64,000 nucleotides of DNA. Source: Octopus vulgaris (lineage: Eukaryota). Below are positions 10,319 to 55,676 of the stretch, in pieces; within the stretch, counting starts at the first letter, position 1, and every line of letters starts with the position of its first letter. Made by a program: the position numbers and the translations under genes. The notes below the pieces were generated by a model. That model saw only the letters and a program-made list of their open reading frames with translations. It did not search any database and had not been told where the DNA came from. The DNA lies in the NCBI GenBank assembly GCA_951406725.2, contig OX597821.1, positions 14,136,001 through 14,200,000 of the forward strand, given 5' to 3'.

Positions 10319-10478
10319 ATGATGTCAATGATGATGATGATGATATTGATGATAGTGGTGTTTGGGTTGTAATAATAATGGTGATAATAATAATAATAAT
10401 AGTAATAATAATAATGATAATTATAATAATAATAATAATAATGATAATAATAATAATAACAACAACAACAATAACAAT
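10319..10478. repeat. (GAT)/(AAT)/(AAC)n trinucleotide tract
   Basis: Direct reading. Confidence 0.9.
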
Positions 10479-16929: not shown

Positions 16930-17900
16930 CAAATTGGTAGGTGGCTTTGAATTCAGCCTTCTTTGCATTGAGGAAAAGACTGACTTTGGTTGCAGCATTC
17001 TCTAGAGATGTTAACAAATCTTACACATTGCATTGTTTATGAGCTGTGAGAGCAGGGTTAAGATCAGAGATAAATGTTCTGCTGACATCTTGATTGCTAC
17101 TATTTGATAGCAAAGCCTAGCAAGCTTCAAAACATCTCACAATCAAGTATTTCAAAGTCAACAAGGCTTGCCTTCTTCAGCCCATATGTAGAGAACCTCA
17201 TTCTCAATGCAGCTGAAACATAGATAATGAAGAAGAAGGTTTAAGATTGCCTTGATGGTACACACACCAGACTTCTCTTTATTTATCGACATATTCCATT
17301 CATGCCTACTAATATTGCTTAACACAGGGTAAGATTTGCAGGACACTGATTTCTTGAAGAACAACAAGCCATATTTACTCTTTACTCTTTTACTTGTTTC
17401 AGTCATTTGACTGCAGCCATGCTGGAGCACCGCCTTTAGTCGAGCAAATCGACCCCGAGACTTATTCTTTGTAAGCCCAGTACTTATTCTATCGGTCTTT
17501 TTTGCCGAACCGCTAAGTGACGGGGACGTAAACACACCAGCATCGGTTGTCAAGCAATGCTAGAGGGACAAATACAGACACACAAACATACATGCACACA
17601 TATATATATACATATATACGACGGCTTCTTTCAGTTTCCGTCGACCCGGGGCTATAGCAGAAGACACTTGCCCAAGATGCCGCGCAGTGGGACTGAACCC
17701 GGAACCATGTGGTTGGTTACCAAGCTACTTACCACACAGCCACTCCTGCGCCTGCTTTGGATGTTATATTTTAAAGCCATTTGAATCCAAACAGAAAATG
17801 AAGATCACTCAGCTATAATGATGTTATTGGCAGAAATAAACAACATGACATTGAGGATCTGACAAATCCAATAAGGAACAGGGATTCCTGGTGCAACATT
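16930..17900 (-). mobile_element. Decayed RTE-like LINE reverse-transcriptase fragment, interrupted by a SINE A
   Basis: ORF 16826-17017 has LLTSLENAATKVSLFLNAKKAEF, resembling the segment after the YADD motif of RTE RTs; ALLSNS and SGV..QG-like remnants upstream; many stops. Confidence 0.45.
17374..17752 (-). mobile_element. SINE family A (tRNA-derived), with ~30-bp internal deletion
   Basis: Head ggcgcaggagtggctgtgtggtaag (A-box) and gggttcagtccc (B-box); internal (TA)/(CA) tract; tail aagtaaaagagtaaagag. Confidence 0.92.
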
Positions 17901-18932: not shown

Positions 18933-19165
18933 AGGCGGCAAGCTGGCAGAAACGTTAGCACGCCGGGTGAAATGCTGATCGGTATTTCGTCTGCCTCTAC
19001 GTTCTGAGTTCAAATTCCACCGAGGTCGACTTTGCCTTTCATCCTTTCGGGGTCGATTAAATAAGTACCAGTTATGCACTGGGGTTGATACAATTGACTT
19101 AATCCGTGTGTCTGTCCTTGTTTGTCCTCTCTGTGTTTAGCCCCTTGTGGGCAGTAAAGAAATAG
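18933..19165 (+). mobile_element. SINE family B, full-length young copy
   Basis: ggcggcaagctggcagaaacgttagc head, gagttcaaattcc B-box, core gcctttcatcctttcggggtcgattaaataagtaccag. Confidence 0.92.
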
Positions 19166-20829: not shown

Positions 20830-21080
20830 TATATATATTATTTAAAGCATTTTGATATGGTTCCATGTGACATAAAATTTTGCAGGCCTCTAAACAGAGG
20901 CACTTTGGAGTGCCATATATGATAAAATGGAAATGAGAACCATTCTCCCATGTGACTGGCTTGAAAAATTGTTAAGATATTAAGATATTTTCTTAACATG
21001 AAACCAATGGAAAGCTTTATACACAAATGAAATTTCATCAGCCAATGCGGTGTTGAGCACTCATTCTCATTGTTCAACAT

Positions 21081-21497
21081 TTACTTTTTTACAAGTTTCA
21101 GTCATTTGACTGTGGCCATGCTAGAGAACCACCTTTTGTCGAAGAAATTGATCCCAGAACTTATTCTTTGTAAGCCTAGTACTTATTCTATTGGTCTCTT
21201 TTGCTGAATTGCTAAGTTTTGGAGACATAAACACACCAGCATCGGTTGTTAAGCAATGATGGGGGGACAAACACAAAAACAAAGATGCACACACACACAC
21301 ACACACACACAAACATATATATATATATATATATATACAGGATGGGCTTCTTTCAGTTTCCGTCTTCCAAATCCATTCACAAGGCTTTGATCAACCTGAA
21401 GCTATAATAGAAGACACTTGCCTAGGTGCCACACAGTGGGACTGAACCCAGAACCATGTGGTTGGGAAGCAAGCTTCTTACCACACAGCCACACCTA
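21081..21497 (-). mobile_element. SINE family A
   Basis: Colinear full-length match. Confidence 0.9.
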
Positions 21498-21637
21498 TAT
21501 GTGTGTACCATTTAGCAGCCATGCTGATGCATCAGATGGTCCAACAGAACATGATGGTCCAGAGGACTGAGTTGTGCTACAATGTCTAGTTTGGCATATA
21601 TAGCTGTATCTAAATTTAACTATCTGTCTGTCTCTCT

Positions 21638-21830: not shown

Positions 21831-22058
21831 TATTTCTTTACTGCCTACAAGGGGCTAAACATAGAGGGGACAAACAAGGACAGACGAAGGGATTGAGTCG
21901 ATTATATCGCCCCCAGTGCGAAACTGGTACTTTATTTATCGAACCCGAAAGGATGAAAGGCAAAGTTGACCTCGGCGGAATTCGAACTCAGAACGTAACG
22001 ACAGACGAAATACCGCTAAGCATTTCGCCCAGCGCGCTAATGTGTCTGCTACTCACCG
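21831..22058 (-). mobile_element. SINE family B inserted in a (GATA)n tract
   Basis: Near-identical reverse complement of 18933-19165; agat repeats on both sides. Confidence 0.9.
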
Positions 22059-29425: not shown

Positions 29426-30393
29426 TTAGCCACTGGCGTCAGCTGATACTACATTGTCTTTTGGATCATCAGAATTTTTTTCAATATCATTAATTAAATT
29501 GTCGAGAGGATAGTCTCCATTTTGAGCTAACGTCAAAGAAGTCATCTTTTCGGTCATATAGTCCGCACATTTGTCACCATATTTATCAATGTCCATATGG
29601 TTATCACCTTCATTGGATGGGGATGACCTTGACGTTGGCTGTTCAATGAGACTAATATCTGAGGCTGATTGGTCAACAGAATTTGTACCTTGATAGCTTT
29701 CATCATTATCCATATTGTCCGAGGGGCTTGTGTCCTGTTGCCAAAGCAACTGTTGCTCTTTATTGTCCAAGTCTTTCCAGCACTTAAGTTTCTCTAGGCT
29801 AGCTGCACTGTCACTGAATTCCAGTTCTTCTCCTTCCCGTTCTTCAGAAGTGTTGCTCTGGGTGTCACTGTCTGGAGAATCCAATTCATCTGTTGGGCCG
29901 GTAGGTGAAGGGGTAGGGGTGGAAGAAATAGCCATGGCACCAGACTCCTCGTCCAAGTCGATGCTTGGACAGATTACTTTAATCGGTGGAGACGTTACCA
30001 TGGCTGATAGGATGGTTGGGTTGGCAGTTTCCAATTGTTGCTGTTGCAGTTGATGGTTTTGGTTTTGGTGATGGTGGTGGTGGTGGTGGAACTGATGTTG
30101 GTTGTTATAAAGTTCGTTATTACTGTGATTATTGAATGTTTGATAGTTGTTGACAATAGTCACAGAGTCCATGATATTTTTGGGACGACACGTCTGGGAA
30201 CATAGAGTTTTTTGATCCCCGGCGAAATTTTCAAGAAGAGTTTCAGTCTCTTCTTTATTTAAAGCATCTTTTTTCAGTATCGATTTTTTTTTCAAAGTAG
30301 CAGGAGAATCTGAAATGATGGTTGGTGTAGCTCTCTTTACTGAGGGTGACTGCTCTGAGTAGGAATCAGAGGAGGAGTTATCTTTGATTTTAT
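29426..30393 (-). CDS. Last coding exon of an unidentified gene; ~320 aa Ser/Asp/Glu/Gln/His-rich, likely disordered region with KKKSILKK (SILK-like motif)
   Basis: 340-codon non-microsatellite ORF with raised GC; acceptor tttgtttttattgtag|AT at 30394 (phase 1); stop TAA at 29426-29428; donor aatg|gtaagt at 29389. Confidence 0.8.
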
Positions 30394-30861
30394 CTACAAT
30401 AAAAACAAATCGAAAACAAACCATTAAATACATTTCTAATAAAAACATGAAATGTTATGAATAAGCTAAAAATAGACAACATGGTCTTCAAAAACTGAAT
30501 ATGAAAGATTAACAAATATAAAAAGAAAATTACTTTCAGAGTATAACAATAAAATAAAAGTTTCATTTTGATAGAATTATCAACCTTATATAAAGATAGA
30601 TATTTATAAATGTTAGGGTGATGGTTAACTTACTTCCAATTTAAAACCTATTCATGATAATCTTAAAGCAAGCCTAATGAATATGTAAACATCTAATGGA
30701 CATTACAATAAAATTGCAGTAGCTGAGTTAATTCAGTTCTATAAATAGAATTGTTTATAACACTATATACAATTTGCTGTTCCGTTCTGATATTTCAATA
30801 CTTTTTCTCTTTTTCTCTTACACGCACACACTACATACACTGTATACATGTGTGTGTGTGT

Positions 30862-35277: not shown

Positions 35278-35496
35278 TGTATGTATGTATGTGTGTATGT
35301 ATATAATGGCAAATTGAATGTTATGAATGTATCTCCTATATTACTGATGACCTGAAAGAAAATCAGGGAAATAAAATTTAATTATTAGTTATATTTCTCC
35401 TACAACGATTTCTGTATTTCTAAGACTTGTATGTCATTCAGCATAGCTCTAGATTATATTACATCACTGTATAAAGCATGGTTAAAAGGGACAATC

Positions 35497-35700: not shown

Positions 35701-36144
35701 ACTGTATGCTTATTATCAAGAGAGGCAGTGTTCATACAAACTGTGTTGCAGTGGTGTAGCATGGGGTGAACAGAGTGTGTAGAACACACTGGCAGTTACT
35801 TTATATATGTGTGTGTTTGCTATTGTTAAAAACTTGTAACAGTTAAGGAAGTGGGATGGCAACCAATTTAGCAAATACATTATAAAATGTAATGCGTATT
35901 TATTCACCTTGTTTTTAATTATATTTCTATATTTAAGAGATGAGGAATTGTGTACATTATTTACATTATTTACAATTGATAGCAATTTGTCCCTATCTTG
36001 TTTGTTGTTATCATGTTTCGGCTGATATACTCTCCAGCCTTCATCAGGTGTCATGCAGAAATTTCGAACCTGGGTTCTCATTTCTAGGTTATTTTTCGAT
36101 GTTATTATTATTATTATTGTTATTATTATTATTACTGTTATTAC

Positions 36145-36178
<34 letters not shown>

Positions 36179-36189
36179 GTCATTATTAT

Positions 36190-36635
36190 TGAGTGAGAGA
36201 GCAGTTCATGCCATCAAAGTGACACTGGGGTAAAATATACGAAGCCCAATATACCCATCATGACTACCCGTCTGATAAGGGTACACCAGGCACATGCATC
36301 ACAACCATATGTGCACGACATGGTGATCTCATATCAAGATAAACAGCACATGACCTTGCAGGTGGGGCCCAGTTAGAATTTTCTTCAGGTTGAGTAGGCC
36401 ATCCCGCTCAAAAGGTCCCTGAATAAGGGTTGTTTAAGGATGTTGAAAGAACCACCCATGTTTCCAGAGGTGAATTATTCAAACCCCAAAGAATTCCACT
36501 TAACACATGGCTATGATGCTCCCCCACTACTTCTGCTCGTCGTCAGAGATGCACATATCATCAGCCACTAAGGGACATGCTCAACTGGTTAAGGTCAAAC
36601 AACTGACAAGCAAATCTGTGGTATTGAGCAGAATA
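36190..36635 (-). mobile_element. Unclassified insertion with (AAT)n at its end, nested in the composite element
   Basis: GC-richer unique block bounded by (ATT)n; absent from copy 2 of the host element. Confidence 0.55.
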
Positions 36636-36659
36636 TTTTATTATTATTATTATAATTTA

Positions 36660-36889
36660 ATTCTTTATTGCCCACAAGGAGCTAAACACAGAGAGGACAA
36701 ACAAGGACAGACAAATGGATTAAGTCGATTACATCGACCCCAGTGCGTAACTGGTACTAATTTAATCAACCCCGAAAGGATGAAAGGCAAAGTTAACCTC
36801 GGTGGAATTTGAATTCAGAACATAAAGACAGACGAAATAACGTTAAGCATTTCGCCCGGCATGCTAACGATTCTACCAGCTCGTCACCT
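36660..36889 (-). mobile_element. SINE family B nested in the composite element
   Basis: Colinear with reverse of 18933-19165. Confidence 0.9.
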
Positions 36890-37197
36890 GTAAGTATTAT
36901 TATTATAATTAATCAGGTCATTGCCTGGAATCAAACTCGGAATCTTGGGGTTAGTAGTCCGCGCTCTTAACCACTACACCCTATGCTCACTTTTAATTAA
37001 TCATGCATTATCTCATAGCTTCAAGATTTCAACGATGAGATTATTTATTTTTACAATAACATCGTAGAGTAGGTATGAAATGTTCAATTGGACCAGTTTG
37101 AATACAAAATAGGTGGAATATTTTGACCAGATACAGCTAATTTAAATGGAAGTGGGATAACAACTAATTTAGCAAATACACTGTCTGTCAAATATAA

Positions 37198-37611
37198 TAC
37201 TCTTTTACTCTTTTACTTGTTTCAGTCATTTGACTGCGGCCATGCTGGAGCACCGCCTTTAATTGAGCAACTCGACATCGGTACTTATTCTTTTGTAAAC
37301 CCAGTACTTATTCTATCGGTCTCTTTTGCCGAACCGCTAAGTAACGGGGACATAAACACACCAGCATCGGTTGTCAAGCAATGCTAGTGGGACAAACACA
37401 GACACACAAACACACAGACACACATATATATATATATATACATATATACGACAGGCTTCTTTCAGTTTCTGTCTACCAAATCCACTCACAAGGCTTTGGT
37501 CGGCCCGAGGCTATAGTAGAAGACACTTGCCCAAGGTGCCACGCAGTGGGACTGAACCCGGAACCATGCGGTTGGTAAACAAGCTACTTACCACACAGCC
37601 ACTCCTGCGCC
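37198..37611 (-). mobile_element. SINE family A, young
   Basis: Full-length, CpGs retained. Confidence 0.93.
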
Positions 37612-38091
37612 TATGTTTATTTATTCATATTGTTTCTAATTAATCATGCATTATCCAATAGTGTCAGGATTTTGATGATGATATTGTTTAATTTTAGAAT
37701 GGCATTGAAGGTTATGTGTGAGAGATCTGACTGGTTTGGCTATGAAACAGGTAAAATATTTGTGCTGGATATGGCTGGTTTAAATGCTCAAGGGCTAAGG
37801 AAATGGGATGGCAGTCAATTTAGCAGATGCACAGGGGAGCCAAAATGTATGCTATGCTACTGCTGTGTTATTTGTTTGCAATGCTCTGTGAAAGCATGTC
37901 CAGACTGTTTGTTGAACTTTAGACTAGGGGAAGTATTTTATTGCTTGGAAACAGGGAAGAGATGGCAACAAGAAGAGTATCTGGCTGTAAAATCTCTGCT
38001 TCCAAAAAGTTATCTGAACCATGAAAGAAAGGAAAAAAAGTGAATGCTAAAATGCTGATGATGAATTCTAAGAATTGTAGAGTTGCATGAT

Positions 38092-38480
38092 TCTTTTACT
38101 TTTACTTTTATTTGCTTCAGTCATTTGACTGCAGCCATGCTGGAGCACTGCCTTTAATCGAGCAAATCGACCCCAGGACTTATTATTTGTAAGCCTAGTA
38201 CTTATTCTATCGGTCTCTTTTGCCGAACCGCTAAGTGATGGGGACGTAAACACACCAGCATCAGTTGTCAAGTGATGTTGGGGGACAAACACAGACACAC
38301 AAACACACATATATATACGATGGGCTTCTTTCAGTTTCCATCTACCAAATCCACTCACAAGGCTTTGGTCGGCCTGAGGCTATAGTAGAAGACACTTGCC
38401 CAAGGTGCTATGCAGTGAGACTGAACCTGGAACCATGTGGTTTGTAAGCAAGCTACTTACCACACAGCCACGCCTATGCC
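38092..38480 (-). mobile_element. SINE family A
   Basis: Full-length match. Confidence 0.92.
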
Positions 38481-38979
38481 TATGATACTCAAAAATTATC
38501 AGCTTATAGTACATAATAAAACACAGAGTAGAGTGATAATTATTTAGATATAGAAATGCTACCAAAAAACCCCCCAGAAAACTGTAATATTAGCTTGTTT
38601 TGGCTATGCATAAAAGTAATAAAATTTTTAATGATTTGTAAAGGACAAAATGTGACATTTATGCCCTTTCCTAGGCTCTTAATGGCATGATTGAAAGAAA
38701 GGGTTTCAGTTGGGAATCAGAACTATAACAAGGAATTTGCTTGCTTAAAGCTTACAACTTGCTCTACAATGTTTGCATATTTCAAAATAGGGAAAAATAA
38801 GTTTTATTGCATTAAAAATAAAATGATGGGAAAAGTCAAAAACAAGTTTTGAAAAATCATTCATTTGCAAAGAGTTTCCAAATATGGAAGAAAAAAAATC
38901 TAAATTAGAACTAGGTCTTATATAATATGTACCTATCTATCGACCTGTCTGTCTGTCTATTTGCCTGCCTGCCTGTTTG

Positions 38980-39277: not shown

Positions 39278-40241
39278 TGCAGGGTACTGTGAGACATGAC
39301 ACAGACAGCTACAATGAAGACTACAAGCAATGCTTTGGCCAGCAGGAAGGGACAAAAATTCATGCCAGAATTCATTCACACATTTTTGAACAGGGACTTA
39401 GACTCAAGTCAGATAGCTATGTGGAGCTGCTGGAAGGCCATATGTGTAGCACCAGGATTTGACCTCTAGCTATACCACAGTAAAGTGTCAGAAGTGGTTT
39501 TTGGAGAATCTGTATGGCTTCACCAGCCTCAGTTCTCTTGCTTGTAATCCCATGGATTATTATATTTGGGGTATAGTTGGGAAATACACCAACCACTCTG
39601 CCTGCAAGACCAAGGCCAAATTGGTGGCCCAGAGCAAGGAGGTGTTTGAAGATCTTTCCACAGACAGTGAGGAATACATATGCCAGGCTCTGGAGCCATC
39701 TTGAGGCATGGTGGAATCTGAAGATAGCTACTTGAGTAAGCCGTTATCTCCAACTATAACCTAGTTGATATTTTCATCTTTTATCTTTTATTTGTTTCAG
39801 TCATTTGACTGCAGCCATGCTGGAGCACCACCTCTAGTTGAGCAAGTCAACCCCAAGACTTATTCTTCATAAGCCTAGTACTTATTCTATCAATCTCTCT
39901 TGCTGAACCGCTAAGTGACGGGGACATAACCACAGCAGCATCGGTTGTCAAGCGATGTTGGGGGGAGAGACAGACACACAAACATATACATATATATATA
40001 TATATATATGCATACATGACAACTTCTTTCAGTTTCTGTCTACCAAATTCACTCACAAAGCTTTGGTCGGCCTGAGGCTATAGTAGAAGACACTTGCCCA
40101 AGGTGCCATGCAGTGGGACTGAACCCGAAACCATGTGGTTGGTAAGCAAGCTACTTGCCACACAGCTACTTTTTTGGGGGATGTGATATTGTGTTTGATT
40201 TTACTTTTATACAAACTGTTTAATTTAGTCTGAACACTATG
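39278..40241 (+). mobile_element. Decayed, internally deleted Tc1/mariner (mariner/maT-like) transposon
   Basis: Remnants [19 protein letters not shown] and QKWFLENLYGF..ACNPMDYYIWGIV..TKAKLVAQSKEVFEDL (SPDxNPxD-type motif); interrupted by SINE A; termini weak. Confidence 0.75.
39775..40169 (-). mobile_element. SINE family A inside the transposon relic
   Basis: Full-length match. Confidence 0.9.
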
Positions 40242-40544
40242 TGTGTGTGTGTATTATATATATATTTGCATGTGTATATGCATGCTTGTATGTAGGTATG
40301 TATTTGACAAGGTCTGCCTTGTCTAATACATACTTACAAACATACATACCAGAGTTCCTTGAGGGTACAAACTTTTAAGAAACTGTGTTGCAGAGTTGAT
40401 GGAAAACCAGGAAGGATGAAAGGGACTGGTCAATAGGATCCAAGTGCACTTGACAGGATATATACGTGTGAACACTCACATAGATTTGTGTGCACGCTTA
40501 CACACATAAATAAATATATTACAAAAATAGAACCACATTCATAT

Positions 40545-40951
40545 CTCTTTTACTCTTTTACTTGTTACAGTCATTTGACTGCGGCCATGCTGGAGCATCG
40601 CCTTTAGTCGAGCAAATTGACCCCAGGATTTCTTCTTTGTAAACCCAGTACTTATTCCATCGGTCTCTTTTGCTGAACCGCTAAGTTACGTGGACGTAAA
40701 CACACCAGCATCAGTTGTCAAGCGATGTTGGGGGGACAAACACAGACACACAAACACACACACACAAACATATATATATACATATATACGACGAGATTCT
40801 TTCAGTTTCCGTCTACCAAATCCACTCACAAAGCTTTGGTCGGCCCGAGGCTATAGAAGAAGACACTTGCCCAAGGTGCCATGCAGTGAGACTGAACCCA
40901 GAACCATGTGGTTTGTAAGCAAGCTACTTACGACACAGCCACTCCTATGTC
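40545..40951 (-). mobile_element. SINE family A
   Basis: Full-length match. Confidence 0.92.
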
Positions 40952-41139
40952 TATGATACTCAAAAATGAAGTGCCATGCACAGGTACAAAACACTTATGT
41001 ATGTGTATATGTATGTCAAGAATGAGAAATGAGTGCTCAATATGTGTTGTAGAGGATATTCTTATTATTGAAACTGAAGCTAAGAGTTTCTCTTGAGGCA
41101 TATGAATGGCAGATTGCAGTGGTATATGAAACTTGAGTT

Positions 41140-48745: not shown

Positions 48746-48993
48746 CCCTTTAGCTCTTTTCTTTTACTCTCTTTTACTTGTTTCAGTAATTTGACTGTGG
48801 CCATACTGGAGCACCGTCTTTAGTCGAGCAAATCGATCCCAGGACTTATTCTTTGTAAGCCCAGTACTTATTCTATCAGTCTCTTTTGCCGAACTGCTAA
48901 GTTACAGGTACGTAAACACAGCAGCATCGGTTGTCAAGCGATGTTGGGGGGACAAACACAGGCACACAAACATATACACATACATATATATAT

Positions 48994-49052
<59 letters not shown>

Positions 49053-49415
49053 TACGATGGACTTCTTTCAGTTTCCATCAGCCAAATCCACTCACAATGC
49101 TTTGGTTGTCCCGAGGCTATAGAAGAAGACACTTGCCCAAGATGCCATGCAGTGGGACTGAACCCGGAACCATGTAGTTCATAAGCAAGCTACTTACCAC
49201 ACAGCCACTCTTCTTAACCAAATGTAATTCTTATACATTGTTTTGAATTAATCACATACCTTTTGAATTAATCACATACCTTTTGAATTAATCTTGTACC
49301 TTCAAGATTTCAATGAAGTGTTTGTATAATTTTAAGGTAGGTATGAGAAGATGGATCCGGTCAGTTTTAACATAAAATATTTAGGCCAGATATGGCCGGA
49401 TTAAATACTAAACGG
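48746..49415. mobile_element. piggyBac-type MITE interrupted by SINE A
   Basis: ccctttagc start, actaaacgg-ttaa end; body matches 61380-61600; internal 20-bp repeat (about three copies) at 49241-49300. Confidence 0.7.
48755..49211 (-). mobile_element. SINE family A
   Basis: Full-length match. Confidence 0.92.
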
Positions 49416-49429
49416 TTAAATATTGTGAA

Positions 49430-50460
49430 AAAGGGAATGGAAAATGACACCAGGAAAAGTTAAGCATTCTAGATATTGCCCAATATTATTTTCCTCAAGC
49501 AAATAAACTTTCATCATTATATGAACCTTTAAAAGGTATATAACAGCAAGAATTGCTCTTCTACAAAATCAATATGTTATATAAAGACTAGAGATATGGT
49601 TTTTAAAAAATGGAGGAAGAATTTAAAAAATTTCTGGAGTTATAGCAAACTTAGTGTATAGTTATATGCAAATACCGTTGAACTAATTCTGAATATTTGC
49701 TAAAAAAGTCTGCCGATATAAGAATGAAAAACAAAAGGGACTGAAATTTTGTAAAAATGATAAAAGATTTTGAAAGAGAAGGGTAAAAGAGAAAAGGAAA
49801 TTTCAAATAGTTGGAAAGCTATTTCAGAGCAAAGAGTTTTGATTTGTTAGATATTTCTTTCAATCTATTGTTCTTTTAATGATAGATAATGTTGAAAGAA
49901 TGTATAAATAAGGGTTTTATTGATTTTTCAGAAATCCTTTCGATGGTTTATAGCAAAGAGTACTATTTTCAACAACTATTGAATGAAGATGTTTTAGAAA
50001 TTGTTTTACTTTTAATGTACTGAAGTTTGATATTCTGTAGTTAAAAGATAAATCTATTCCAATAATAAAAAAATATATTCAAACTAAAATAATGAATTTT
50101 TTGATTAAAATTATTGGCCACAGATCTTTAGTGAATCTCAAGACAGTGAACAAGTTGTTGCTTATAATTTTTATGCTGGTTGATTAAATAGTAAATTATT
50201 TTACCTCATGTTTGGAATAGAGAATTTGTTAATATGAAAAAGCAAAAGATTAAAAATGATGAAAGAAAATATAATCAATGTTAGTTACTAAGATTAAAAA
50301 AGTTAATTGATAACAGATAGGCGAGATTGAACTCATTATTTTGTCCCAGAAGTAAAACCTTGTTTTAACAGTGAAACATTGAGTATCAAAAAGAGCTTGG
50401 CTCATAAAATTAAACAAATTTAATAGGGAAGATATTAGGTAAGATTTCTATAAATATTCT
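49430..50460 (+). mobile_element. Possible ancient LINE RT relic
   Basis: A-rich; FIDF.KSFD-like and NYWP.SLVN-like fragments, but in unexpected order. Confidence 0.25.
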
Positions 50461-50481
50461 TATTTTAGGATAAATATACTT

Positions 50482-50780
50482 TCCTATATTTAAGAAATGA
50501 GGAATTATGTACATTATTTACATTATTTTCATTTGACGGATATTTGTCTTCATCTTGTTTGTTGTTAACACAACATTTTGACTGATATATCCTCCAGCCT
50601 TCATCAGGTATCTTGGAGAAATTTTGAACCCGGGTTCTCATTCCTAAATTATTTTTCAATGTTGTTGTTATTATTATTGTTATTATTCTTTAGGTCACTG
50701 CCTGGAATTGAACTTGGAATCTTGGGGTTAGTAGCCCATGCTCTTAACTACTATACCATATGCCCATGGGCATAATGGTG

Positions 50781-50835
<55 letters not shown>

Positions 50836-50997
50836 TAATAATAATAATAATAACAACATCGAAAAATACCTTAGGAATGAGAACCCAGGTTTGAAATTTC
50901 CCCAAGACACCTGATGAAGGCTGGAGGGTATATCAGCCGAAACGTTGTGTTAACAACAAACAAGATGAGGACAAATATCCGTCAAATGTAAATAATG
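50482..50997 (-). mobile_element. Composite tRNA-head/(AAT)n/hammerhead-tail element, copy 2, with inverted second tail
   Basis: 11-bp direct repeat taaatatactt (50471-50481, 50998-51008); minus tail 50482-50660, head 50692-50765, palindromic junction tatgcccatgggcata, plus-strand tail 50858-50997. Confidence 0.85.
50906..50951 (+). ncRNA. Minimal type I hammerhead ribozyme (Penelope-type)
   Basis: GACAC-CTGATGA-A-GGCTG-gagggtatat-CAGCC-GAAA-CG-TT-GTGTT; stem I GACAC/GTGTT, stem II 5 bp, palindromic AACGTT stem III. Confidence 0.75.
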
Positions 50998-51280
50998 TAA
51001 ATATACTTAGTTTGGTTATATTTGATATTTGAAGAAGTTTCTATATATCCAAATCAGAATATGAATCTAAGAGAATTATATAACTGAGGAAAGTTCGTAC
51101 ATTAGAAATATATAGTAAATGATTTCTACTGAACTATGAGACAAACTAGCTTAGATAACTGGAGTCAATATATTCAGTCATTAAATATATAAGAATCAAA
51201 AGTGTTCAAAATATACATCAGCAGAAATAAAATATGTTATGTAATAACTTGTGTATATATATATATATAATTATATCTTT

Positions 51281-51337: not shown

Positions 51338-51569
51338 TAATTAAGGGTTAAGCAACAAGTTGCTTCACCACATACCGAAAATTTAGAAACAGCGACCAAA
51401 GACAGCTCATTCCTTTTACTACAGATATTACTCCACAGATAACATTATTTGTAACTCTGTGGAATAATATCTGCAGTAAAAAGGAATGAGCTGTCTTTGG
51501 CTGCTATTTCTAAATTTTCGGTATGTGGTGAAGCAACTTGTTGCTTAACCCTTAATTATATTTATATAT
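51328..51569. repeat. Near-perfect foldback (arms ~110 bp, spacer ~16 bp) at a (TA)n tract
   Basis: taattaagggttaagcaacaagttgcttcacc... versus ...ggtgaagcaacttgttgcttaacccttaatta. Confidence 0.9.
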
Positions 51570-55160: not shown

Positions 55161-55244
55161 TCATAACAGTAAATATTGCAATGCTTATAATAGAATCTTT
55201 TCGGGAGTTGGGGATATTTGATAAATATATAAATGTACTATAGT

Positions 55245-55407
55245 TGTAAGAGTGGCTGTGTGGTAAGTAGCTTTCTTACCAACCACATGGTTCTGGGTTC
55301 ACTCCCACTGCGTGGCACCTTGGGCAAGTGTCTTCTACTATAGCCTCAGGTCGACCAAAGCCTTGTAAGTGGATTTGGTAGATGGAAACTGAAAGAAGAC
55401 CGTCGTA

Positions 55408-55468
<61 letters not shown>

Positions 55469-55676
55469 GTATATGTTTATGTGTCTGTATTTGTCCCTCC
55501 AACATTGCTTGACAACCGATGCTGGTGTGTTTACGTCCCTGTAAATTAGTGGTTCGGCAAAAGAGACCAATAGAATAAGTACGAGACTTCCAAAGAATAA
55601 GTCCTGAGGTCGATTTGCTCGACTAAATGCGGTGCTCCAGCATGGCCACAGTCACATGACTGAAACAAGTAAAGAG
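55245..55676 (+). mobile_element. SINE family A
   Basis: Full-length match. Confidence 0.92.

What the first reader, a model, noticed from the sequence alone, without database searches (positions are those of the whole stretch)
50482..50997. Copy 2 of the tRNA-hammerhead element: inverted double tail inside one TSD
Seen: one 11-bp TSD encloses tail(-)/(ATT)n/tRNA head(-)/palindrome tatgcccatgggcata/(AAT)n/tail(+). The plus tail has an intact minimal hammerhead (50906-50951, extra A after A9, palindromic AACGUU stem III, GUU site); the minus tail has GAAA changed to AAAA. Established: PLE insertions often carry inverted terminal segments, and minimal hammerheads with palindromic stem III are proposed to act as dimers. 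Inference: PLE-type fold-back priming produced this insertion, supporting PLE mobilisation of the element.
Basis: partly seen in the sequence, partly recalled or inferred. Interest (0 to 1): 0.75.

Follow-up and report, generated by a model that had tools for sequence, protein, structure and literature searches.

The report
Octopus SINE with Penelope-type insertion signature
This is a head-to-head double insertion of an abundant octopus repeat that joins a tRNA-like promoter to the ribozyme-bearing end of a Penelope-like retrotransposon, which suggests a SINE copied by Penelope-type enzymes, a pairing I did not find described, although the two arms differ too much to be a simple fold-back copy of each other.

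Summary
Observation confirmed: duplicated 11-mer, head-to-head arms, 16-bp palindrome, intact minimal hammerhead on the plus arm, decayed one on the minus arm. Translated-tail hits are Octopus gene models. Contigs of three runs show a very abundant family with two preferred 3' ends 28-41 nt apart (the Penelope 'tail' signature), recurrent head-to-head palindromes and inverted 5'-truncated tails. Here the minus arm ends near the long end and the plus arm exactly at a short end, so Penelope-type mobilisation is likely (about 0.85); no autonomous partner was found. Pure fold-back copying fits badly: against family majority letters the minus tail differs at 10 sites and the plus tail at 1 (p=0.012), and the arms end at different sites. 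Best reading: both target strands primed on two different RNAs, joined at the palindrome; later conversion of one arm is the main rival. The two hammerheads lie on opposite strands and cannot form a cis dimer. No empty site seen (left junction only tested). The scan has no note on this family; similar patterns were noted in other genomes. New variant of a known kind.

The parts
50471..50481 (+). Left copy of the target-site duplication
   Evidence: the left junction is also present in contigs of three other runs (records 1, 8, 16)
50482..50518 (-). 3' extension of the minus arm (PLE-type optional 'tail', 28-37 nt counting from the two short ends at 50510 and 50519)
   Evidence: (loose-end peaks 50484, 50510, 50513, 50519)
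50519..50661 (-). Minus-arm tail core, 10 changes from the family majority in the covered part
50567..50612 (-). Decayed hammerhead of the minus arm (G12>A, stem III palindrome lost, stem II C lost)
50660..50690 (-). Short, degenerate (AAT/AAC)n linker of the minus arm
50691..50765 (-). tRNA-like head; A-box match 50748-50758, B-box match 50705-50713; no run of 4 T until 73 nt beyond the element
   Evidence: ARAGORN and Rfam do not call it at normal thresholds
50759..50774 (.). Perfect 16-bp palindrome at the head-to-head junction
   Evidence: recurs in 31, 44 and 43 contigs of three runs (loose ends behind 50774)
50768..50774 (+). Inverted stub of the head start (7 nt certain, up to 50779 possible)
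   Evidence: the following letters also fit a degenerate microsatellite (match at 10375)
50780..50857 (+). Long, nearly pure (AAT)n linker of the plus arm
50858..50999 (+). Plus-arm tail, 1 change from the family majority in the covered part; ends at a short end, no extension
50906..50951 (+). Minimal type I hammerhead, predicted cut after 50946
   Evidence: cleavage not tested
50998..51008 (+). Right copy of the target-site duplication (first 2 nt shared with the element's short end)
35926..36989 (-). Copy 1 of the same family: head 36915-36989, linker interrupted by about 700 nt of other repeats, tail with extension, 3-nt deletion at the cleavage site, 9-bp duplication-like match

Best explanation
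The unit is a non-autonomous retroelement of octopuses: a tRNA-like internal Pol III promoter, an (AAT)n linker, and the hammerhead-to-tail module of a Penelope-like element (PLE). Inferred steps: Pol III makes an RNA that runs through the whole unit. The monomeric minimal hammerhead mostly does not cut, so head and tail stay joined. A PLE reverse transcriptase/GIY-YIG protein supplied in trans binds the tail, nicks both strands of an AT-rich target about 9-11 bp apart, and starts cDNA at one of two internal sites 30-40 nt apart. At this locus one strand was primed near the long site and copied a full unit (minus arm). The other strand was primed at a short site on a different, near-consensus RNA and copied only tail and linker (plus arm). 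The two cDNAs were joined at the short palindromic head stub, which comes from a brief fold-back or from a palindromic source locus. Shown: anatomy, the two end classes, recurrence of the junction, arm asymmetry. Not shown: Pol III transcription, cleavage, the partner protein, the two-template step. PLE-type mobilisation as such I put at about 0.85; the number below is for the whole account, two templates included.
For: Two end classes in each of three runs: loose ends at the long end (50484 plus 50513) in 366, 535 and 502 contigs, at the short ends (50510 plus 50519) in 140, 199 and 164 (18 of 847 loose-end rows shown). Depth over the extension is 0.39, 0.43 and 0.32 of the adjoining tail. 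The plus arm ends at 50999, the mirror of 50519. Of 15 joints shown (47 in all), 7 change strand and 6 of these join a 5'-truncated tail to 50736-50771 of the head. 31, 44 and 43 contigs run through the palindrome into a second head. Head and tail are linked in both window copies that have a head, and in one listed contig of each run (records 7, 15, 23). Sister repeat families share the module from the hammerhead on: 112 of 163 matches start at profile positions 9-11, and ends are bimodal, 46 at 50-56, 1 at 57-59 and 52 at 60-64 of 104. 18 of 150 listed hits hold the unit two or three times head to tail. Literature: inverted 5'-truncated copy plus a 30-40-bp tail (PMC8557442); 8-10-bp TSDs, junction palindromes and mobilisation in trans by pLTRs alone (PMC3846280); two RT start sites make the tail, both strands are nicked and extended, uncleaved RNA is the main template (PMC11167929). 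Different templates: 10 versus 1 changes (p=0.012), and copy 1 shares two non-plus states with the minus arm at 50617 and 50648.
Against: No protein with PLE reverse transcriptase or GIY-YIG domain was found attached to the tail (Pfam on 9 and 66 of about 250 hits), so the partner is inferred from footprints only. The tRNA origin rests on A- and B-box matches; ARAGORN and Rfam do not call it. If both arms date from one event, the plus arm looks young: the left junction is shared with a run whose flank differs by 5.5-6.7%, which predicts 3.8-4.7 changes in 140 nt against 1-2 seen (P 0.05-0.26), and its linker is long and pure. With copy 1 alone as outgroup the asymmetry is 11 versus 3 (p=0.057). 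The depths are summed contig depths, not copy numbers; joints were called at 80% likeness with sides of 27-44 letters.
Confidence: 0.45

Rival explanations
1. One PLE-type insertion with matching arms; later the plus arm was overwritten by gene conversion or break repair from a younger copy, which also removed most of its head. The long palindrome would have been a fragile site.
For: The plus tail is near the family majority (1 change; 4 CpG left against 2 in the minus tail), its linker is long and pure, and it has fewer changes than the age of the left junction predicts. Conversion keeps the duplication and both ends.
Against: The shortfall of changes is not significant (P 0.05-0.26). Stub-then-jump junctions also occur in other copies (joint 50543-50771 and short inverted stubs), so no later event is needed to lose the head.
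Confidence: 0.25
2. Two successive insertions: an old minus-strand copy, then a young 5'-truncated copy next to its head.
For: Unequal divergence. PLEs are said to insert into or next to existing copies (PMC6765202, passage).
Against: One duplication encloses both arms (chance 0.07-0.7%), no second duplication is seen at the junction, and the geometry is the family's recurrent one.
Confidence: 0.1
3. One reading: one RNA; the cDNA folds back at the head and copies itself to make the plus arm.
For: Perfect palindrome at the centre, recurrent in the family. Self-priming was proposed for such junctions (PMC3846280, Discussion).
Against: It predicts identical arms with one end. The arms differ at 14 of 140 sites, 10 to 1 in polarity, and end at different family ends; the plus arm skips about 60 nt of head and has a linker more than twice as long.
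Confidence: 0.08
4. No PLE dependence, or no composite family: an ordinary LINE-mobilised SINE that once captured a PLE end, or a tRNA head and PLE fragments that meet by chance in (AAT)n runs.
For: No partner found. The tail is 3-4.5 times deeper than the head. PLE endonuclease prefers ATT (PMC11167929). An earlier scan note found such a join to be a one-off in another genome (e1-7811937).
Against: The 3' ends abut unique flank at two fixed sites, without poly(A) or repeat tail. Head and tail are linked in both window copies and in further contigs, including three same-strand deletion joints from tail to head and six inversion joints. Excess tail depth is expected from 5' truncation.
Confidence: 0.1

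Closest known systems
Insertion units of endonuclease-bearing Penelope-like elements (Penelope/Poseidon, Neptune, Nematis; PMC8557442, PMC3846280, PMC11167929)
   Same: Inverted 5'-truncated copy at the 5' end, palindrome at the junction, optional 30-40-nt tail on one end, 8-11-bp duplication, AT-rich target, minimal hammerhead upstream of the ends.
   Different: No ORF; about 280 nt; a tRNA-like head stands where the coding body would be; the partner is not identified.
Minimal type I hammerheads of metazoan PLEs (Cervera and de la Pena 2014, PMC4209133)
   Same: Extra nucleotide after A9, G10.1-C11.1, long stem II, 5-bp stem I, palindromic 15.2-16.2 without loop. That paper also saw opposite-strand pairs 100-700 bp apart in Schistosoma.
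   Different: Not reported there with a tRNA-like head or in cephalopods, in the parts I read; cleavage untested here.
SMalpha / Sjalpha SINE-like elements of Schistosoma (second-hand, from PMC6765202 and PMC8490949)
   Same: Pol III-type promoter followed by a type I hammerhead in a short non-coding retroposon.
   Different: Described as tandem units freed by an active ribozyme; no PLE partner or tail signature is given in the passages read. The unit here is dispersed or inverted, with a minimal ribozyme.
Non-LTR retrozymes and other non-autonomous PLE derivatives (10.64898/2026.07.22.740005; MRC1 in PMC8557442; short non-autonomous Penelope in PMC6685494)
   Same: Non-coding, pLTR-derived, presumed to borrow PLE proteins. 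Sister families found here form head-to-tail repeats of the same module.
   Different: Retrozymes are tandem arrays; no tRNA head is mentioned in what I read (0 hits for 'tRNA' in the preprint). No tandem copy of this family lies in the window.
Octopus tRNA-derived SINEs (Ohshima and Okada 1994; title seen in reference lists only)
   Same: Same host group and a tRNA-like head; this family may be one of them or already sit in a repeat library.
   Different: Could not be compared: the paper and the repeat libraries were not available.

Membership tests
Autonomous Penelope-like element | ORF with telomerase-like RT and GIY-YIG endonuclease | tested here: not met
   The insertion is 516 nt; no such ORF in it; no RT or GIY-YIG domain in the scanned homologues
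PLE-mobilised non-autonomous element | Two alternative 3' ends about 30-40 nt apart (tail signature) | tested here: met
   sister families
PLE-mobilised non-autonomous element | Inverted 5'-truncated copy joined head to head, recurring in the family | tested here: met
   6 of 15 joints shown; 31, 44 and 43 palindrome-spanning contigs
PLE-mobilised non-autonomous element | Minimal type I hammerhead upstream of the ends | tested here: met
   no variant of 10% or more listed at 50601-50607, 50576-50578 or 50572-50574 in three runs; G12 is the majority state in 80-81% of depth
PLE-mobilised non-autonomous element | 3' end homologous to the pLTR of an autonomous PLE in the same genome | tested here: inconclusive
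   Only protein-level searches in one frame were possible; no genome held
PLE-mobilised non-autonomous element | True target-site duplication (one copy at an empty site) | tested here: inconclusive
tRNA-derived SINE | tRNA-related head with A and B boxes | tested here: inconclusive
   A and B boxes match at tRNA-like spacing in the minus head; in copy 1 only a one-base-relaxed B box matches; no ARAGORN or Rfam call at normal thresholds
tRNA-derived SINE | Short, non-coding, dispersed at high copy number | tested here: met
   12,267, 16,137 and 19,365 contigs laid; head depth 32,000-67,000 times the single-copy flank, an order of magnitude only
tRNA-derived SINE | Pol III transcription | not testable with these tools
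   No RNA run was laid; no run of 4 T inside the unit
tRNA-derived SINE | 3' tail shared with a partner LINE, or poly(A)/simple-repeat end | tested here: not met
   The ends are fixed internal sites next to unique flank; homology to LINE 3' ends was not searched
Non-LTR retrozyme | Head-to-tail tandem units, each with a hammerhead | tested here: not met
   Window copies are single or inverted; tandems were seen only in sister families
Active (dimeric) hammerhead ribozyme | Self-cleavage after 50946 as monomer or dimer | not testable with these tools
   Computed double-hammerhead fold -22.3 kcal/mol against -24.0 for two monomers and -29.2 for a different dimer; no cis partner at this locus

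The most novel reading that the evidence does not exclude
A major octopus SINE family is a tRNA-headed parasite of Penelope-like elements, a SINE-partner pairing I did not find in print. Its inverted insertions are made by one dimeric PLE enzyme priming both target strands on two different RNAs, so that tens of thousands of short two-armed insertions record the PLE integration step in vivo.
Probability: 0.4. Interest if true: 0.78.

Novelty: new variant of a known kind. Interest (0 to 1): 0.6.

Why it matters
The locus architecture is the known PLE pattern; what is unusual is the passenger. SINEs are normally tied to LINE partners (own knowledge). A Pol III-headed element that uses PLE internal priming would add a class of partner and reassign a sizeable part of the octopus SINE fraction (11.6% of the O. 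vulgaris genome, with 893 of 900 recently active SINE families unclassified, PMC13282606). It would also make an open question testable: how PLE inverted structures form is stated to be unresolved (PMC8557442, PMC3846280). Short two-armed insertions at high copy number allow an arm-by-arm comparison that separates fold-back, twin priming and later conversion, and they let one ask why the hammerhead is kept when cutting would separate the promoter from the priming site.

Tried and rejected
No genome is held, so no genome-wide count. Exact-pattern scan of metagenome contigs: 0 loci. Rfam: nothing at gathering score in the window, and only below-threshold matches near the element. ARAGORN: 0 genes at default and at -ps80; at -ps70 two implausible folds for the minus head and none for copy 1. 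Search for the autonomous partner through one translated frame of the tail: two Octopus gene models and about 250 short pseudo-ORFs; the only long hit (P0128) is an unrelated repeat protein; two hits carry RNase H-like domains of other retroelements. Other frames hold only short peptides and were not searched. Folding gives no support for a stable double hammerhead of the 46-mer. Assembly artefact rejected: the arms differ at 14 of 140 sites and the left junction is in three other runs. Selection on the ribozyme within this family is not shown: core and non-core tail positions are alike free of listed variants. The depth drop at 50566-50585 coincides with the mirror of the cut site (50572) but also with four clustered mismatches of the reference, so it was not used. 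Albertin 2015 and Lunse 2017 are not held. Scan look-ups by sequence, by the first set of words and by place gave nothing related.

Full report
1. Observation. The window is AT-rich (31.7% G+C) and full of microsatellites; no whole genome is held. TAAATATACTT lies at 50471-50481 and 50998-51008; among 20,000 random pairs of AT-rich, non-microsatellite 24-mers an exact match of 11 or more arose in 0.065% and of 9 or more in 0.72%. Between them lie, on the minus strand, a full unit (head 50765-50691, short AAT/AAC linker, tail to 50482) and, on the plus strand, a 7-nt stub of the head start, a long nearly pure (AAT)n run and a tail ending at 50999. The centre is a perfect 16-bp palindrome. The plus hammerhead has a 5-bp stem I, CUGAUGA, one extra A, a 6-bp stem II, GAAA, CG and U-U, with the cut after 50946; a stem-checked descriptor hit it and one weak other site, and 2 of 200 resampled windows had any hit. 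Rfam and ARAGORN call neither ribozyme nor tRNA at normal thresholds; the head matches A- and B-box patterns (recalled consensus) at tRNA-like spacing. One more copy lies at 36989-35926 on the minus strand, its linker interrupted by other repeats.

2. Host and family. A translated frame of the tail hits gene models of Octopus sinensis and O. bimaculoides that begin with this repeat, so the family is an octopus repeat. I laid four runs on 50186-50785 at 80% likeness. The raw-read run gave 7 reads and is uninformative. The three contig runs gave 12,267, 16,137 and 19,365 records; summed depth is 32,000-67,000 times the single-copy flank over the head and 148,000-187,000 times over the tail peak, an order of magnitude only, since the tool warns that this is no copy number. 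Head and tail are joined in both window copies that have a head, in one listed contig per run (records 7, 15, 23) and in three same-strand deletion joints, so the unit is a family and not a one-off join; the linker itself was skipped by the tool, so the fraction of linked heads is unknown.

3. The Penelope footprint. Loose ends pile up at a long end (50484, plus 50513 for copies that differ by the 9-nt repeat: 366, 535 and 502 contigs) and at short ends (50510 and 50519: 140, 199 and 164); 18 of 847 loose-end rows were shown. Depth over the extension is 0.39, 0.43 and 0.32 of the adjoining tail. The ends are 28-41 nt apart. The minus arm stops within a few bases of the long end; the plus arm stops at 50999, the exact mirror of 50519, so the duplication is better read as 9 bp with a 2-nt overlap. 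Of 15 joints shown (47 in all), 7 change strand and 6 of them join a 5'-truncated tail to 50736-50771 of the head. In 31, 44 and 43 contigs the sequence runs through the palindrome into a second head, whose consensus fades after 9-15 further letters; depth past the head start is 0.19-0.48 of that at 50754, depending on how it is averaged. This is the arrangement described for endonuclease-bearing PLEs: an inverted 5'-truncated copy and a 30-40-bp tail at one end (PMC8557442, passages), 8-10-bp duplications, junction palindromes and mobilisation in trans through pLTRs alone (PMC3846280, passages and Discussion), and two internal RT start sites that define the tail, with both target strands nicked and extended and uncleaved RNA as the main template (PMC11167929, main text). 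The ribozyme has the traits of PLE minimal hammerheads (PMC4209133, results and discussion), which also notes opposite-strand pairs 100-700 bp apart.

4. Sister families. About 250 short pseudo-ORFs from unnamed assemblies share the module but have other upstream sequence. 112 of 163 matches start at profile positions 9-11, at the hammerhead. Ends are bimodal: 46 at positions 50-56, 1 at 57-59, 52 at 60-64 and 5 earlier, of 104 (the query was built mostly from long-end copies and stops at 64). 18 of the 150 listed hits (184 in all) hold the unit two or three times head to tail. In the hits the two codons that carry one stem II pair read R and R in 45 of 75 scorable proteins each (103 examined), against W and Q here, which suggests a C-G pair in place of U-A; this is inferred from peptides, no DNA was seen. 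No hit carries a PLE RT or GIY-YIG domain (precomputed domains for 101 hits; Pfam on 9 and 66 proteins). The partner is therefore not identified.

5. The arms are not copies of each other. They are 126 of 140 identical. Against the majority letters of all three runs the minus tail differs at 10 sites, at each of which the plus tail has the majority letter, and the plus tail differs at 1 (p=0.012). Three further differences lie where coverage was too low; counting them gives 13:1 or 12:2 (p=0.002, 0.013), while copy 1 alone as outgroup gives 11:3 (p=0.057). The minus head has 6 more changes. Copy 1 shares two non-plus states with the minus arm. A fold-back copy would start identical and share the first arm's end, so fold-back can account at most for the central stub. 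Half of the 5.5-6.7% flank divergence predicts 3.8-4.7 changes in 140 nt: the plus arm's 1-2 is somewhat low (P 0.05-0.26) and the minus arm's 12 or more is too high (P 0.0006-0.003). That fits two templates of unequal divergence used in one event, or an older event with later conversion of the plus arm; the data do not separate them.

6. Ribozyme role. The two hammerheads are on opposite strands; in a read-through transcript 43 of 46 nucleotides of the intact one pair with the other arm. The inverted structure thus supplies no dimer partner. A computed double hammerhead of the 46-mer (-22.3 kcal/mol) is not favoured over two monomers (-24.0) or another dimer (-29.2). A cut after 50946 would part the promoter from the priming sites 53-90 nt downstream, so full-length copies must come from uncut RNA, in line with PMC11167929 and the low activity reported in PMC4209133. 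I infer that the ribozyme is carried as part of the recognised pLTR module; activity is untested.

7. Mechanism and odds. PLE-type mobilisation of a Pol III-headed unit: about 0.85. For this locus: priming on both strands with two different RNAs, joined at the palindrome, 0.45; one event with later conversion of the plus arm, 0.25; two successive insertions, 0.10; pure fold-back, 0.08; no PLE dependence or no composite family, 0.10. The stub may be a fresh fold-back or a leader inherited from a palindromic source locus; not resolved.

8. Novelty. Inverted PLE insertions, minimal hammerheads, non-autonomous PLE derivatives (10.64898/2026.07.22.740005, first fifth and passages; PMC8557442; PMC6685494, passages; PMC7761336, passages) and Pol III-plus-hammerhead SINEs (SMalpha, second-hand from passages of PMC6765202 and PMC8490949) are known. 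Nine searches gave no paper describing a tRNA-headed SINE with a PLE tail signature or a cephalopod hammerhead SINE. Term searches in PMC13282606 (also first third read), PMC8967140, PMC4758252, PMC3531059 and PMC10886601 showed no such link either. The library lacks most subscription papers; Albertin 2015 and Lunse 2017 are not held; Ohshima and Okada 1994 was seen as a title only; no supplements or repeat libraries were read, and the family may already be listed there. Earlier scan notes show similar patterns in other genomes, not this family. Verdict: a typical PLE-type insertion of an atypical passenger; new variant of a known kind; interest 0.6.

Noticed in passing
window 36190-36890: Two other repeats, each with AAT runs at an end, sit inside the (AAT)n linker of copy 1; the one near 36650-36890 has relatives at 18933-19164 and 21831-22049. 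The linker looks like an insertion hot spot.
   Followed up: partly
P0001, P0002: Octopus gene models (a cysteine-rich membrane-protein-like model and a dystrobrevin beta isoform) begin with peptide read from this repeat: exonisation or mis-annotation.
   Followed up: no
P0057, P0110, P0111, P0116, P0188 and others: Sister repeat families in unnamed assemblies carry the same hammerhead-to-tail module in head-to-tail runs of two or three units of about 42-46 codons, retrozyme-like, where a cis double hammerhead could form.
   Followed up: partly
window 50877-51002 (+), 50641-50483 (-), 36081-35926 (-): One frame through the tail stays open for about 52 codons in the minus arm and in copy 1 (one stop in the plus arm), and the indels seen are multiples of 3; chance or a relic of the partner's ORF.
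   Followed up: partly
window 50566-50585: Family depth falls by more than half across the mirror of the predicted cut site (50572) in all three contig runs; confounded by clustered mismatches in the reference.
   Followed up: no
window 35344-35371 (+): A second hammerhead-like descriptor hit (CTGATGA, 5-bp hairpin, GAAA) in AT-rich sequence with a weak stem I; probably chance.
   Followed up: partly
window 17374-17753, 21073-21506, 37198-37615, 38092-38484, 39772-40182, 40542-40955, 48758-49221, 55240-55673: Another abundant dispersed repeat of about 450 nt, at least eight copies in both orientations.
   Followed up: no
window 29426-30454 (-): 342-codon open frame, Ser/Gln/Asp-rich, probably a large exon of a host gene; no Pfam match.
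   Followed up: partly
window 51345-51565: Short inverted-repeat element just right of the insertion, next to a (TA)n run; MITE-like by eye.
   Followed up: no
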